Origin: a phage
DNA length: 1,199 bases
Sequence record: OR846207.1
Direction: 5' to 3' (one strand)
Shown in pieces: positions 2 through 1,199 of the stretch. Position 1 is the first letter of the stretch, and every line of letters begins with the position of its first letter. Position numbers and translations under genes: made by a program. A model generated the notes under the pieces. It had not been told where the DNA came from, ran no database searches, and worked only from the letters and a program-made list of their open reading frames with translations.

Positions 2-151
2 AACCAAACCCTGCTTGACCAGCGCCTTTCAGATCTTGAACTAAAAGATTTGGATGCGCAAATATCAGAAGCAGAAGCCAAGCTATCCAGCTTAAACCAC
101 CGCAGGAAGCAAATCCGCAACAGAATTACTCAGGGACGCGGAAGCTGTTGA
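2..151 (+). CDS. 3' end of a CDS truncated by the window start; 49 C-terminal residues (…NQTLLDQRLSDLELKDLDAQISEAEAKLSSLNHRRKQIRNRITQGRGSC), stop TGA at 149-151; function unknown
   Basis: Only plus frame open across 1-151 (frames 1 and 3 hit stops at 16-18 and about 40). The minus strand has stops in all three frames here. Residues are charged with a heptad-like Leu pattern and a basic tail. No start codon in the window, so it is absent from the ORF track. Confidence 0.45.
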   Translation, partial: NQTLLDQRLSDLELKDLDAQISEAEAKLSSLNHRRKQIRNRITQGRGSC

Positions 152-160
152 AATCCTAGT

Positions 161-478
161 CTATTTTTTCTCAGAGCTCATATTGTAATAGGTGGTATAA
201 ATAGAGATTGATTTCTGACATGCTTCAAGAAATTGCTGCGGAGTCATCCCAAGCCTTGCTTGCTCTGTAGTAAGGAATCTCTGTAAGAATTCATTCCCAC
301 CCGGCATGTTTGTAGATTCTTGGAATATTGCCATTTGTTTGATTGCACCACACATACCAGCCATTTTCGAAGCTATCATGAGGCCTTGTATTTCATCAAA
401 ACTGCTATCGTCTGATTTTGTTTCTGCGTTAGCTATGCTCGAGAGACACAGGAGCAATAGGATAGCGATGCGTTTCAT
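161..478 (-). CDS. Small secreted/periplasmic protein of unknown function, 105 aa, with a Sec signal peptide; co-transcribed with the Mnt-like repressor
   Basis: N-terminus MKRIAILLLLCLSSIANA-ETK has a classic n-region (MKR), a hydrophobic core and an AXA (ANA) signal-peptidase I site. The mature part of about 87 aa has two Cys (GMCGA, EACQK) that could form a periplasmic disulfide. No lipobox is present (LLLC does not fit L-[AS]-[GA]-C). Its ATG (478-476) overlaps the upstream TGA (477-475) as ATGA. An SD-like AAGGGTG lies about 5-7 nt upstream inside the preceding gene. Confidence 0.75.
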   Translation of the reverse strand: MKRIAILLLLCLSSIANAETKSDDSSFDEIQGLMIASKMAGMCGAIKQMAIFQESTNMPGGNEFLQRFLTTEQARLGMTPQQFLEACQKSISIYTTYYNMSSEKK

Positions 479-723
479 TTTTCACCCTTACCATACATGG
501 TTTTCAGCGTCTCAAGCAGCGCCTCTTTGAATTTGTCAGCTTCTTGCTGAGCAAATGACTCAACTGACTTTGGCGACCTATCTTCATCAATCGCGGCTTG
601 CAAAATCATGACGATCTCGGAGTTAACAGAGCGACCATTTTTTGATGCTCTAACAGCAAGAGCCTCGCGTAAAGATTCAGGGATTCTTACCGTAGTTGGA
701 GAAATTGACACACCCTTTGCCAT
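475..723 (-). CDS. Mnt-like ribbon-helix-helix transcriptional repressor (Arc/MetJ superfamily), 82 aa
   Basis: N-terminal beta-strand and helix motif TVRIPESLREALAVRASKNGRSVNSEIVMILQAAI matches the RHH signature and closely parallels P22 Mnt as I recall it (FRMPMEVREKLKFRAEANGRSMNSELLQIVQDAL). A C-terminal extension ending ...LLETLKTMYGKGEK resembles the Mnt tetramerisation helix (...TLKDLYKKTT). Length is Mnt-like. SD-like AAAGGTG sits 4-6 nt upstream of the ATG at 723-721. Confidence 0.85.
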   Translation of the reverse strand: MAKGVSISPTTVRIPESLREALAVRASKNGRSVNSEIVMILQAAIDEDRSPKSVESFAQQEADKFKEALLETLKTMYGKGEK

Positions 724-743
724 AACACACCTTTGGTATTCAA

Positions 744-755
744 TTTGATATCAAA
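744..755. promoter_or_regulatory. Perfect 12-bp palindrome TTTGATATCAAA, candidate RHH operator; extends to an 18-bp near-palindrome CAaTTTGATATCAAAgTG (741-758)
   Basis: Read directly from the sequence. It lies 21 bp upstream of the Mnt-like start codon and 18 bp upstream of the -35 of the plus-strand promoter. RHH repressors bind short dyad-symmetric operators. A related half copy TTTGCTATC occurs at 791-799. Confidence 0.45.
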
Positions 756-763
756 GTGTATGC

Positions 764-774
764 AAAAAAATTTT
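764..774. promoter_or_regulatory. A7T4 tract (AAAAAAATTTT) abutting the -35 element, possible UP-element or intrinsic bend
   Basis: Read directly from the sequence. A/T tracts just upstream of a -35 hexamer are the usual position of UP elements. No functional evidence. Confidence 0.3.
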
Positions 775-801
775 GACTAGATATACTCACTTTGCTATCT
801 T
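773..801 (+). promoter_or_regulatory. Sigma70-like promoter for the Arc-like operon: -35 TTGACT (773-778), 17-bp spacer, extended -10 TGcTATCTT (793-801)
   Basis: TTGACT is 5/6 to TTGACA. Spacer is 17 bp. TATCTT is 4/6 to TATAAT and is preceded by a TG extended -10 motif. Predicted start near 808 gives a leader of about 30 nt to the ATG at 838. Confidence 0.5.
779..800. promoter_or_regulatory. Inverted repeat AGATA-N12-TATCT across the promoter spacer and -10, candidate second operator
   Basis: AGATA at 779-783 and its reverse complement TATCT at 796-800. The position between -35 and -10 is where I recall the Arc operator sitting in P22 Pant. Arms are short, so chance occurrence is plausible in AT-rich DNA. 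Confidence 0.25.
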
Positions 802-827
802 TTGTATTCGAAAAGAGTTGTTTATGT

Positions 828-833
828 GGAGGG
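828..833 (+). promoter_or_regulatory. Shine-Dalgarno GGAGGG for the Arc-like gene
   Basis: GGAGGG lies 4-5 nt upstream of the ATG at 838 and supports 838 over the TTG at 802 as the true start. Confidence 0.6.
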
Positions 834-837
834 TAAC

Positions 838-990
838 ATGGAGAAAGAAATAAGTAAGATTTTGGTAAGGATGCCGCAGTCGTTAAAGGATGCTATCGGT
901 AGCAGGGCAAAGGAAGAGTGTAGGTCGTTTAACTCAGAGGTTATCAAGCGCCTGATAGACAGCCTGAAGAGAGAGGGGGTTACGGTATGA
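838..990 (+). CDS. Arc-like ribbon-helix-helix repressor, 50 aa (MEKEISKILVRMPQSLKDAIGSRAKEECRSFNSEVIKRLIDSLKREGVTV)
   Basis: Aligns along its whole length with P22 Arc as I recall it (…FNLRWPREVLDLVRKVAEENGRSVNSEIYQRVMESFKKEGRIGA): R-[WM]-P beta-strand, RS-x-NSE helix-A cap, ESFKKEG versus DSLKREG at the C-terminus. Strong SD and ATG at 838. The ORF track's 62-aa version starts at an upstream TTG (802) with no RBS. Confidence 0.85.
   Translation: MEKEISKILVRMPQSLKDAIGSRAKEECRSFNSEVIKRLIDSLKREGVTV
971..979 (+). promoter_or_regulatory. Purine-rich Shine-Dalgarno (GAGAGGGGG) for the downstream membrane-protein gene, inside the 3' end of the Arc-like gene
   Basis: GAGG/GGGGG lies 7-10 nt upstream of the ATG at 987; that ATG overlaps the Arc-like TGA stop (ATGA at 987-990). 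Confidence 0.5.
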
Positions 991-1199
991 AGGTGTCATT
1001 GCTTGATCGTTCTTTACAATTTTTGTCTGGCGCAATCATTGTAGTTTGCTTGCTCGTGATTTTTACATCCTTAATCAATATGTATCAATCAGGGGAGCGA
1101 TTGACAAAGACGATAGAGGAAAAGAAATCAGTCTCAAATTACGAAGTATCACATGCACATAACGATTTAGTAGAAAGCCTTGACCGTATTAACAAGAGG
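987..1199 (+). CDS. 5' part of a CDS for a membrane-anchored protein of unknown function (71 aa in window, continues past the window end); one N-terminal TM helix
   Basis: ATG at 987 is in an open frame to 1199 with no stop: MKVSLLDRSLQFLSGAIIVVCLLVIFTSLINMYQSGERLTKTIEEKKSVSNYEVSHAHNDLVESLDRINKR. Residues 11-30 form a roughly 20-residue hydrophobic stretch, with K/R before it (positive-inside) and a charged hydrophilic region after. Absent from the ORF track only because it has no stop in the window. Confidence 0.7.
   Translation, partial: MKVSLLDRSLQFLSGAIIVVCLLVIFTSLINMYQSGERLTKTIEEKKSVSNYEVSHAHNDLVESLDRINKR

What the first reader, a model, noticed from the sequence alone, without database searches (positions are those of the whole stretch)
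161..723. Mnt-like repressor co-transcribed with a small secreted protein
The Mnt-like gene's stop overlaps the start of a 105-aa protein with a textbook Sec signal peptide and two mature-region cysteines. P22 mnt has no such partner that I know of. A periplasmic protein under an immunity repressor suggests a lysogenic-conversion or defence factor, for example a periplasmic immunity protein or inhibitor, or a superinfection-exclusion component.
Basis: partly seen in the sequence, partly recalled or inferred. Interest (0 to 1): 0.65.

Follow-up and report, generated by a model that had tools for sequence, protein, structure and literature searches.

The report
Secreted prophage cargo protein behind mnt
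A P22-like prophage carries, fused onto the end of its Mnt repressor gene, an optional gene for a small exported three-helix protein of an unstudied but widespread family, which is a reasonable but untested candidate for a factor that protects the lysogen at the cell envelope.

Summary
On the minus strand an 82-aa Mnt-like ribbon-helix-helix gene (475-723) ends in ATGA with the start of a 105-aa ORF (161-478). That ORF has a canonical Sec signal peptide (MKR/IAILLLLCL/SSIANA|E) and two mature-region cysteines.

The ORF is a real gene: core dN/dS is 0.05-0.12, and it is intact in 53 of 54 E. coli genomes and in 38 of 39 IMG/VR loci (the 39th is cut by its contig end). It belongs to phrog_19844, with at least 257 clusters at 50% identity across diderm bacteria. 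There is no Pfam, NCBIfam, PADLOC or PDB relative. AlphaFold gives a confident three-helix bundle (pLDDT 89.6) with no fold match.

The gene is optional cargo. Near-identical mnt genes are followed instead by a ClpP-like gene or by nothing.

Linkage to Mnt-like genes recurs in enterobacterial phages (22 of 22 close loci with the 4-nt overlap, across several Mnt types). It is absent in distant members, which sit in integrase islands and satellites.

Function is untested. My best guess is a lysogen-expressed periplasmic blocking factor.

The parts
475..723 (-). 82-aa Mnt-like ribbon-helix-helix repressor gene
   Evidence: ORF. Pfam Arc PF03869 E 9.7e-11, 41.8 bits against cut-off 20.4. 36% identity to P22 Mnt over residues 11-79, including the C-terminal helix, E 6e-14. 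Annotated 'Arc family DNA-binding protein' in E. coli prophages.
475..478 (-). ATGA overlap: stop codon of mnt and start codon of the 105-aa gene
   Evidence: Sequence read. The same 4-nt overlap occurs in 22 of 22 IMG/VR loci of the 105/104-aa types, although the Mnt types differ.
483..489 (-). Shine-Dalgarno-like AAGGGTG inside the 3' end of mnt, 4 nt upstream of the ATG
   Evidence: Read directly from the sequence. Its function is inferred.
161..478 (-). 105-aa gene of the phrog_19844 family (precursor of a small exported protein)
   Evidence: ORF. phrog_19844 E 1.1e-69. Homologues. dN/dS 0.05-0.18. Annotated as hypothetical protein WP_000820796.1 in E. coli.
425..478 (-). Signal peptide, residues 1-18 (MKRIAILLLLCLSSIANA), with predicted SPase I cleavage after Ala18
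   Evidence: Manual n/h/c-region and -3/-1 analysis, no lipobox. Feature kept in 218 of 220 family members. DeepTMHMM signal annotation on homologue Kapi1_059.
164..424 (-). 87-aa mature domain, a predicted three-helix bundle. Cys43 (350-352) and Cys87 (218-220) are family-invariant and are a probable disulfide.
   Evidence: AlphaFold2 with a 74-sequence alignment gave pLDDT 89.6 and pTM 0.71, with helices at mature residues 6-38, 43-58 and 62-85. C43, E72, R75 and C87 are invariant in 95 diverse members. The disulfide is inferred and not measured.
724..837 (.). Divergent mnt/arc control region: predicted Pant-like promoter at 773-801 (+), and operator-like inverted repeats at 732-767 and at 747-758/788-799
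   Evidence: Promoter scan, inverted repeats, analogy with the annotated P22 Pant/Pmnt/Oarc/Omnt layout. No consensus-grade Pmnt was found, so its position is inferred.
838..990 (+). 50-aa Arc repressor gene, divergent from mnt
   Evidence: Pfam Arc E 5e-12. Followed by an antirepressor gene in related prophages.

Best explanation
The 105-aa ORF is an optional accessory ('moron'-type) gene of P22-like and other enterobacterial temperate phages. It has been spliced onto the 3' end of the mnt maintenance-repressor gene.

Proposed sequence of events:
1. It is transcribed with mnt and translated by coupling through the ATGA overlap. It should therefore be made when the Mnt promoter is active, that is, in the lysogen.
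2. The precursor is exported by Sec and cut after Ala18.
3. The 87-aa mature protein folds in the periplasm into a three-helix bundle, probably stapled by a Cys43-Cys87 disulfide.
4. It works alone, with no conserved partner gene, through the strongly conserved face formed by the second half of helix 1, the TKMPGG(D/N)EF loop and helix 2.

The most likely role is a periplasmic binding or blocking factor that protects the lysogen at the envelope. My first choice is interference with incoming phage at the periplasmic stage of DNA entry, which is superinfection exclusion.

What is shown and what is inferred:
- Shown: gene reality, architecture, family, optional-cargo status, recurrent linkage to Mnt-like genes, and location in the sieA slot.
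- Inferred: co-transcription, export, cleavage and the disulfide.
- Speculative: the exclusion function.
For: Gene and architecture:
- Purifying selection.
- Signal peptide and Cys pair conserved family-wide while the signal sequence itself diverges.
- Confident helical model.

Cargo status:
- The same mnt (98-99% identity) is followed by a ClpP-like gene or by nothing.
- The homology break falls exactly at position 477.
- Only 54 of 5426 complete E. coli genomes carry the gene, against 245 that carry parts of the window.

Linkage to Mnt:
- 22 of 22 close viral loci have the 4-nt overlap behind several different Mnt types.
- Three loci lie 57-109 nt behind 142-170-aa Mnt-like genes, and one lies 19 nt behind a P22-type Mnt.
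- The Kapi1-type copies lie on the mnt strand, 44-1882 nt downstream of the mnt-like gene in 9 of the 10 loci with a resolved ORF.
- A Yersinia lambda-like prophage has it directly after a 148-aa Arc-family gene, next to antirepressor genes.

Slot:
- It lies between ejection gene 16 and mnt, where P22 has orf59a and sieA.
- P22 SieA blocks DNA injection by acting on the gp16/gp20 conduit (PMC10883804).
- The same region in related prophages holds toxin-antitoxin and Panacea genes.

Stand-alone, mobile-element cargo:
- No recurrent neighbour in 22 diverse loci.
- Distant members lie in integrase/AlpA islands, in a capsid-plus-primase satellite-like element, and in prophage accessory regions.
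- In two cases the neighbour is a PADLOC defence candidate: PDC-S31 at 3e-26 and PD-Lambda-3_B/HEPN at 7e-13.

Only diderm taxa are named among hits. A periplasmic effector that blocks phage DNA entry has a recent precedent in the HXS system (PMC13128918).
Against: - No experiment, and no homology to any protein of known function. Pfam, NCBIfam, PADLOC and PDB sequence searches are all empty.
- The family is highly conserved across very different bacteria and mobile-element types. It occurs in podovirus, siphovirus, satellite-like and island contexts. This fits a conserved host or chemical target better than a fast-evolving phage protein, and it argues against specificity for P22-type ejection proteins.
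- One distant member looks chromosomal, with no mobile-element genes nearby.
- No consensus-grade Pmnt and no terminator after the gene were found, so the transcript structure is inferred from P22.
- SignalP was not run.
Confidence: 0.4

Rival explanations
1. The protein is a periplasmic inhibitor or orphan immunity protein against antibacterial enzymes or toxins rather than against phage. Candidate targets are lysozymes or lytic transglycosylases, type VI amidase or muramidase effectors, and bacteriocins. It would then be a fitness factor for the lysogen in competition or in a host.
For: - It is small, exported, disulfide-bearing and stand-alone, with a strongly conserved polar surface (K38, Q53, T56, D/N62, E63, R67, E72, R75). 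This suits binding of a conserved enzyme.
- It is widely distributed in environmental diderms.
- It is carried on integrative elements, as orphan immunity genes often are.
- The fact that known inhibitor and immunity proteins share this general build is my own knowledge and was not tested here.
Against: - No effector or toxin gene lies next to it in any of about 20 contexts examined.
- No fold match to Ivy, MliC/PliC, Tai/Tsi-type immunity proteins or any other solved inhibitor.
- No Pfam immunity family hit.
Confidence: 0.25
2. The protein modulates the host envelope itself. Possibilities include O-antigen or LPS assembly, a periplasmic sensor domain of a two-component system, or an action as a small stress chaperone or metal-binding protein. 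That would be lysogenic conversion without direct contact with an invader.
For: - P22-like phages commonly convert the surface (gtrABC in P22).
- Phage Kapi1 carries a family member (Kapi1_059) and modifies O-antigen through a gene that its authors could not identify (PMC8787464).
- Conservation across phyla fits a conserved host target.
- Met residues (M49, M58) and the Cys pair are conserved.
- mnt-side genes of the P22-like prophage Gally are induced up to 40-fold in macrophages (PMC9928086). This shows the operon position can respond to host conditions.
Against: - An 87-aa helical bundle has no catalytic signature.
- It is not linked to gtr, wzy or oac-type genes in any locus.
- No similarity to CpxP/Spy or HdeA folds was retrieved.
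- The Kapi1 link is circumstantial and nobody has tested that gene.
Confidence: 0.15
3. The secreted protein is a functional partner of Mnt within the immunity circuit, for example a signal-sensing arm that feeds back on antirepressor control, rather than independent cargo.
For: There is a tight 4-nt overlap, and linkage to Mnt-like genes recurs in several divergent subfamilies.
Against: - Mnt genes 98-99% identical function in prophages without it.
- One strain has it frameshifted.
- P22 itself lacks it.
- Distant family members have no ribbon-helix-helix neighbour.
- The two products would sit in different compartments.
Confidence: 0.03
4. The ORF is a chance reading frame or a decaying remnant with no product.
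For: PGAP left it unannotated in one genome where it is frameshifted. It has no database annotation beyond 'hypothetical'.
Against: - dN/dS is 0.05-0.12 with saturated synonymous sites.
- It is intact in 53 of 54 E. coli genomes and in 38 of 39 viral loci, the 39th being cut by its contig end.
- 257 family clusters exist, with invariant residues.
- The structure prediction is confident.
Confidence: 0.01

Closest known systems
Phage P22 immI region and its adjacent accessory slot (gene 16 | sieA | orf59a | mnt | arc | ant | gene 9)
   Same: - Same backbone order in related prophages: ejection genes, accessory genes on the mnt strand, mnt divergent from arc, then antirepressor and tailspike.
- Mnt is 36% identical.
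- P22 also has a small ORF (orf59a) upstream of the annotated mnt terminator, and a lysogen-expressed exclusion gene (sieA) in this slot.
   Different: - The cargo is unrelated. orf59a is a hydrophilic 59-aa protein without a signal peptide.
- SieA is a three-pass inner-membrane protein with its own promoter (PMC10883804). hhalign of the family against SieA gives probability 0.1%.
- Here the cargo overlaps mnt by 4 nt and is a soluble exported protein.
T4 Spackle (gp61.3), a periplasmic superinfection-exclusion protein that inhibits the gp5 tail lysozyme (function from my own knowledge of the literature)
   Same: General build: about 100-aa precursor, N-terminal signal peptide, small mature domain with two cysteines (T4 sequence read). 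It is a stand-alone periplasmic factor.
   Different: - No homology. hhalign gives probability 6.7%, aligned over the signal peptide only.
- Spackle structures were not among the matches listed by the PDB fold searches.
- Spackle is made by a virulent phage early in infection, not from a prophage maintenance operon.
Outer-membrane lipoprotein exclusion factors Cor (phi80/N15/HK022) and Llp (T5), and Ltp of TP-J34 (own knowledge)
   Same: They are single small exported phage proteins that block entry of other phages.
   Different: They are lipoproteins with a lipobox cysteine. The window protein has none. Only 9 of 220 family members have a lipobox-like string.
HXS defence system, a periplasmic effector that blocks phage DNA entry (PMC13128918)
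   Same: It is a precedent that a signal-peptide-bearing periplasmic protein can gate phage DNA entry (title and abstract seen).
   Different: HXS needs an rSAM maturase and an HxS-repeat effector. The present protein has no repeats and no partner gene, and it gives no PADLOC hit.
PHROG family phrog_19844
   Same: Full-length match, E 1.1e-69. All 95 diverse family members match it.
   Different: The family carries no functional annotation, so membership says nothing about mechanism.

Membership tests
Arc/Mnt ribbon-helix-helix repressors (82-aa gene) | Arc-like RHH domain above the Pfam gathering score | tested here: met
   PF03869 at 41.8 bits against cut-off 20.4, E 9.7e-11.
Arc/Mnt ribbon-helix-helix repressors (82-aa gene) | Mnt-type length and C-terminal extension, with similarity to P22 Mnt | tested here: met
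   82 aa against 83 aa. 36% identity over residues 11-79, E 6e-14.
Arc/Mnt ribbon-helix-helix repressors (82-aa gene) | Divergent arrangement with arc, followed by an antirepressor gene | tested here: met
   arc lies at 838-990 (+). An antirepressor lies downstream in homologous prophages. It falls outside the window itself.
Arc/Mnt ribbon-helix-helix repressors (82-aa gene) | Binding to an operator overlapping Pant | not testable with these tools
   Only operator-like inverted repeats were seen.
Sec/SPase I secreted proteins (105-aa gene) | Positive n-region, 7-15 residue hydrophobic h-region, small residues at -3/-1 | tested here: met
   MKR / IAILLLLCL / SSIANA|E. The feature is kept in 218 of 220 relatives.
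Sec/SPase I secreted proteins (105-aa gene) | Positive call by a trained predictor (SignalP or DeepTMHMM) and experimental processing | not tested
   No predictor was available. There is only the depositors' DeepTMHMM note on the 47%-identical Kapi1_059.
Bacterial lipoproteins (Cor/Llp-type exclusion factors) | Lipobox [LVI][ASTVI][GAS]C at the end of the signal peptide | tested here: not met
   No lipobox.
P22 SieA family | Sequence or profile similarity, and a multi-pass membrane topology | tested here: not met
   hhalign probability 0.1%. There is no hydrophobic segment after the signal peptide.
T4 Spackle family | Sequence, profile or fold similarity | tested here: not met
   hhalign probability 6.7%, over the signal peptide only. 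Not listed among the PDB fold matches.
Known anti-phage defence proteins (PADLOC-DB 2.0) | Match to any model | tested here: not met
   0 families at E<=1.
phrog_19844 | Full-length HMM match | tested here: met
   E 1.1e-69 over 1-105 of 105.
Phage 'moron' / lysogenic-conversion cargo | Present or absent between otherwise near-identical phage backbones | tested here: met
   Replaced by a ClpP-like gene or by nothing behind 98-99% identical mnt. Found in 54 of 5426 E. coli genomes.
Phage 'moron' / lysogenic-conversion cargo | Own promoter and terminator | tested here: not met
   No promoter-like site between or inside the genes on that strand, and no terminator-like hairpin downstream. It appears to use the mnt transcript instead.
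Phage 'moron' / lysogenic-conversion cargo | Expression from the repressed prophage | not testable with these tools
   Inferred from the role of mnt in P22 lysogens (PMC10883804).

The most novel reading that the evidence does not exclude
phrog_19844 proteins are a new, widespread class of single-gene periplasmic exclusion or defence effectors. They would be disulfide-stapled three-helix bundles with a new fold variant, carried by prophages, satellites and integrative islands across Proteobacteria and beyond. They would block a conserved periplasmic step of phage genome delivery, for example virion-borne peptidoglycan hydrolases or the trans-periplasmic conduit. In enterobacterial phages they would be wired to the Mnt promoter so that only lysogens make them.
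Probability: 0.3. Interest if true: 0.7.

Novelty: new variant of a known kind. Interest (0 to 1): 0.45.

Why it matters
Accessory genes expressed from prophages decide which other phages, and sometimes which competitors or host defences, a lysogen can withstand. Very few factors are known that act in the periplasm. For short-tailed phages the only studied entry blocker is the membrane protein SieA.

This family has several useful properties:
- It is small and stand-alone, so it is easy to clone.
- It is present in pathogens, including O104:H4 outbreak strains, porcine ETEC/O139 and Salmonella Kentucky.
- It has hundreds of relatives in environmental bacteria and no annotation at all.

Showing what it binds would annotate a whole orphan family. 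It could also reveal a conserved, targetable step of envelope crossing. If it proves to be only a fitness or conversion factor, it still documents that the 3' end of mnt is used as an expression socket for interchangeable cargo.

Tried and rejected
Searches on the 105-aa protein and on 95 relatives:
- Pfam at E up to 10: no consistent family.
- NCBIfam, PADLOC, and PDB by sequence and by profile: nothing.

Fold searches:
- The AlphaFold-database library was not available, so the most useful fold library was never searched.

Profile comparisons with T4 Spackle and P22 SieA were negative.

Collection scans:
- A genome-collection scan with the broad alignment failed for lack of a conserved stretch.
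- A narrower alignment gave only 10 loci.
- tblastn against 72,556 plasmids gave no match.
- tblastn against 50,697 phage genomes gave only two records.

Other checks:
- An all-against-all comparison of neighbours in 22 loci found no conserved partner gene.
- PHROG annotation of neighbours in two Pseudomonas-type viral contigs was uninformative.
- Rfam on the window found nothing, so no sar-like RNA was detected.
- The terminator search and RNA fold downstream of the gene found nothing.
- The composition profile shows no distinct island signature.
- Literature searches for the accession number and for a characterised homologue found none.

Ideas considered and dropped:
- The literal 'GGDEF' string in the family consensus was considered as a diguanylate-cyclase link. 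I dropped it because this is a helical 87-aa exported domain and the window protein reads GGNEF.
- An HdeA-like acid chaperone was considered because of similar size and Cys spacing. No fold match was retrieved.
Full report
**What is in the window.**

The window is 100% identical to Salmonella phage S.Kent 1-2-1 (OR850876.1, 20651-21849). It contains these features:
- the 3' end of a 61-aa ORF (2-151, +);
- a 105-aa ORF (161-478, -);
- an 82-aa ORF (475-723, -);
- a 114-bp control region;
- a 50-aa ORF (838-990, +);
- the start of a further ORF (987-1199, +).

The 82-aa and 50-aa proteins both hit Pfam Arc (PF03869; E 9.7e-11 and 5e-12). The 82-aa protein is 36% identical to P22 Mnt over almost its whole length.

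In homologous E. coli and Citrobacter prophages the surrounding order is: ejection-protein genes (gp7/gp20/gp16 types), accessory genes, mnt, arc, a small ORF, antirepressor, tailspike, integrase. This is the immI region of a P22-like (Lederbergvirus-type) prophage.

**Checking the observation.**

The minus-strand junction reads GGTAAGGGTGAAAAATGAAACGC.
- The TGA of mnt (477-475) and the ATG of the 105-aa ORF (478-476) overlap as ATGA.
- An AAGGGTG ribosome-binding-like string lies 4 nt upstream of the ATG.

The 105-aa protein begins MKR-IAILLLLCL-SSIANA|ETKSDD.
- It has a positive n-region.
- It has a 9-10 residue hydrophobic core, too short for a membrane span.
- It has Ala at -3 and -1.
- It has no lipobox.

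Cys43 and Cys87 lie in the mature part. The description is therefore accurate.

The ORF is not a chance frame.
- It matches phrog_19844 end to end (E 1.1e-69).
- dN/dS against five homologues is 0.10-0.18 overall and 0.05-0.12 in the core, with synonymous sites near saturation.
- It is intact in 53 of 54 complete E. coli genomes that carry it.
- It is intact in 38 of 39 IMG/VR loci; the 39th copy (L055) is cut by its contig end.

**The protein family.**

A word-indexed search found only 11 close clusters, from E. coli, Salmonella and Citrobacter. An exhaustive profile search of 1.84 billion representatives found 257 clusters at E<=1e-3 and 164 at E<=1e-10. Nearly all are about 100 aa long.

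Named sources include Pseudomonas fragi, Vibrio fluvialis, Yersinia, Burkholderiales, Rhizobiales/Hyphomicrobiaceae, Chromatiaceae, Thermodesulfovibrionales and Elusimicrobiota. All are diderms and all the proteins are called 'hypothetical'.

In 95 diverse members C43, E72, R75 and C87 are invariant. K38, G41, G44, F52, Q53, T56, G61, F64, R67, F68 and Y94 are nearly so. The consensus is AK-x-(A/T)G-x-CG-x3-QM-x2-FQ-x-(S/T)TKM-x-GG(D/N)EF-x2-RF-x2-TE-(A/S)ARLG ... C.

Of 220 full-length members:
- 218 keep an N-terminal hydrophobic segment followed by a small -3/-1 site, although the signal sequences themselves are not conserved;
- 217 keep the second cysteine;
- nine have lipobox-like strings.

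No member hits a consistent Pfam family even at E<=10. The profile finds nothing in the PDB by sequence. NCBIfam and PADLOC give nothing.

**Structure.**

AlphaFold2 on the precursor with nine sequences gave a three-helix mature domain with core pLDDT 81-93. On the mature domain with 74 sequences it gave pLDDT 89.6 and pTM 0.71, with helices at mature residues 6-38, 43-58 and 62-85.

Fold searches were negative.
- Foldseek against the PDB gave no hit at E<=0.001, with TM <=0.41.
- Foldseek against BFVD gave none.
- The AlphaFold-database library was unavailable.

The conserved block covers the C-terminal half of helix 1, the loop and helix 2. Helix 3 is variable apart from Cys87 and Tyr94. A helix 1 to helix 3 disulfide is likely in the periplasm, but I could not measure it.

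**Relationship to mnt.**

In IMG/VR, all 22 loci of the 105-aa and 104-aa types follow a Mnt-like gene with the same 4-nt overlap. The Mnt proteins themselves are of several kinds:
- window type, E 2e-49;
- P22 type, E 5e-43;
- a 78-aa type;
- a distant 83-aa type.

The homology of E. coli prophages to the window breaks either exactly at 477 or inside mnt at 556. So the cargo travels with, at most, the last third of mnt.

More distant subfamilies are also linked to Mnt-like genes.
- Three loci lie 57-109 nt after 142-170-aa Mnt-like genes, and one lies 19 nt after a P22-type Mnt.
- A Yersinia enterocolitica lambda-like prophage has it directly after a 148-aa Arc-family gene, beside two antirepressor genes, inside the tail-gene region.
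- In the Kapi1 type it stays on the mnt strand, between gene 16 and mnt, 44-1882 nt downstream of the mnt-like gene in 9 of the 10 loci with a resolved ORF, with small ORFs between.

Pseudomonas-type and other environmental members have no ribbon-helix-helix gene within 2 kb. The linkage is therefore real and recurrent in enterobacterial phages, but it is not a family-wide rule.

**The gene is optional cargo.**

Parts of the window occur in 245 of 5426 complete E. coli genomes. The 105-aa gene occurs in only 54, always on the chromosome and always next to the Arc-family gene. These include O104:H4 outbreak strains (76% nucleotide identity) and porcine ETEC/O139 strains.

Behind mnt genes that are 98-99% identical, the slot holds one of three things:
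- this gene;
- a 178-aa ClpP-like protease gene (phage phiv205-1 and strain SW070919);
- nothing, with a convergent YafO toxin module instead.

In strain OkiPb01711 a 1-nt insertion truncates the ORF while mnt is intact.

It actually shows that Mnt does not need the protein and that the protein is interchangeable cargo.

**Comparison with P22.**

The P22 reference record annotates the following:
- mnt at 14519-14770 (-);
- orf59a at 14240-14419 (-);
- a mnt terminator at 14212-14234;
- a sieA promoter, then sieA at 13336-13830 (-);
- the end of gene 16 at 13313.

So P22 mnt does have a downstream ORF within its annotated transcription unit. The slot is the home of the SieA exclusion gene. orf59a is hydrophilic and has no signal peptide.

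[quoted passage not shown] It shows no profile similarity to the present family.

**Contexts of distant members.**

Nine further contexts were inspected.
- One is a satellite-like element with a serine recombinase, a VapE-type primase and a capsid gene. There the neighbour is a Hypoth_Ymh protein that matches PADLOC PD-Lambda-3_B/HEPN models.
- Three are integrase-plus-AlpA or HTH islands.
- One is an integrase island with a filamentous-phage-type replication gene.
- One lies beside a DUF2971 protein that matches the PADLOC candidate PDC-S31 (E 3e-26).
- One looks purely chromosomal.

An all-against-all comparison of neighbours in 22 loci found no recurrent partner. The protein therefore acts alone and is mainly carried by integrative mobile elements, often at their edges.

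**How it most likely works.**

Shown:
- It is a selected, exported-type, stand-alone small protein.
- It is cargo, placed in the sieA slot and joined to mnt.

Inferred from established P22 biology (mnt maintains lysogeny by repressing Pant):
- Transcription comes from the Mnt promoter, so expression occurs in the lysogen.
- Translation is coupled through ATGA.
- The protein is exported by Sec, cleaved after Ala18 and oxidised by DsbA.

Speculative:
- The mature bundle binds a periplasmic target through its conserved helix-loop-helix face and so blocks envelope crossing by incoming phage.

The high conservation across unrelated hosts and element types argues for a conserved target. Candidates are a host periplasmic component or virion-borne peptidoglycan hydrolases, rather than P22-specific ejection proteins.

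Rivals are an inhibitor or immunity role against antibacterial enzymes, or modulation of the host envelope. Phage Kapi1, which carries a family member, modifies O-antigen by an unidentified gene (PMC8787464), but nothing ties that phenotype to this gene.

I put about 0.85 on the descriptive part. I put about 0.3-0.35 on exclusion specifically.

**Comparison with known systems.**

T4 Spackle has the same general build: a signal peptide and a small mature domain with two cysteines. It is not homologous.

Cor and Llp are lipoproteins, and this protein has no lipobox. HXS (PMC13128918) is a precedent for periplasmic gating of DNA entry but is unrelated in composition.

The protein is a member only of phrog_19844, which has no annotation.

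**Verdict.**

The arrangement is an example of a known phenomenon, namely accessory cargo in the gene 16-mnt hot spot of P22-like phages. The cargo itself belongs to a sizeable, wholly uncharacterised family of exported proteins with no detectable structural relatives. That makes it a reasonable experimental lead rather than a surprise.

Scores: interest 0.45; novelty 'new variant of a known kind'.

Noticed in passing
window 987-1199 (+), runs off the end: A small ORF starts in an ATGA overlap with the arc stop (987-990). It encodes a protein with an N-terminal hydrophobic segment (phrog_27312, unknown function, E 8e-48). It fills a second variable slot, between arc and the antirepressor gene. 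Related prophages hold unrelated 57-, 73- or 89-aa ORFs there. In P22 this interval holds the sar antisense RNA. Rfam found no RNA family in the window.
   Followed up: partly
L003 6228-6764 (-), and L072 2963-3499 (-) (phage phiv205-1): In prophages with near-identical mnt, the post-mnt slot holds a 178-aa ClpP-like protease gene (Pfam CLP_protease E 2e-11). It abuts or overlaps the mnt stop. A stand-alone Clp protease subunit riding on a maintenance-repressor transcript is unusual, and I did not examine it further.
   Followed up: no
window 477 and 556: Homology to other phages and prophages breaks at two sharp points. One is exactly at the mnt stop / cargo start (477). The other is inside mnt (556). 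The last ~80 nt of mnt (477-556) also match the PhiR12 phages at 92.5%. These look like recombination joints that swap either the cargo alone, or the cargo plus the C-terminal oligomerisation part of Mnt.
   Followed up: partly
window 732-767, and 747-758 / 788-799: An 18+18 nt imperfect palindrome is centred on GATATC. An inverted pair GATATCAAAGTG / CACTTTGCTATC flanks the predicted Pant-like promoter (TTGACT-17-TATCTT, 773-801). These are probably the Mnt and Arc operators. No consensus-grade Pmnt was detected.
   Followed up: partly
L001 8148-8471 (E. coli OkiPb01711): A 1-nt insertion frameshifts the N-terminal third of the 105-aa gene. A 72-aa ORF remains from an internal Met, and PGAP annotates nothing there. 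It is the only disrupted copy among 54 E. coli genomes.
   Followed up: yes
window 2-151 (+): This is the 3' part of a 61-aa coiled-coil ORF (phrog_7586, E 6e-34; annotated with an XhlA motif in Kapi1_061). It converges on the cargo gene with a 9-nt gap. It is kept next to the slot whatever the cargo is. No terminator-like hairpin lies between the convergent genes.
   Followed up: partly
family alignment A3/A4; window residues 59-64 (PGGNEF): Most family members carry the literal string GGDEF (…TKMPGGDEF…) in the loop between helices 1 and 2. The window protein reads GGNEF. The context is a helical 87-aa exported domain. The resemblance to the diguanylate-cyclase motif is probably coincidental.
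   Followed up: no
proteins P0022 (202 aa), P0156 (174 aa), P0147 (135 aa): A few family members are tandem duplications of the domain. P0147 has a lipoprotein-type signal (…LLLVGC…), so some relatives may be membrane-tethered rather than soluble.
   Followed up: no
L015 4707-4889 and 4941-5249 (phage Kapi1): Kapi1 has two adjacent small genes with DeepTMHMM-annotated signal peptides between gene 16 and mnt (Kapi1_060 and Kapi1_059). Kapi1_059 is the family member. The Kapi1 paper could not identify the gene behind its O-antigen modification. It reported toxicity and prophage loss when manipulating a region around 'hyp19', whose position I could not map.
   Followed up: partly
L001 7054-7921; L073 2436-3460: Other occupants of the gene 16-mnt interval in related prophages are a Panacea-domain protein with a partner that weakly matches PADLOC NsnC, and a YafO-family toxin module. 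The interval behaves like a small defence and toxin-antitoxin hot spot.
   Followed up: partly
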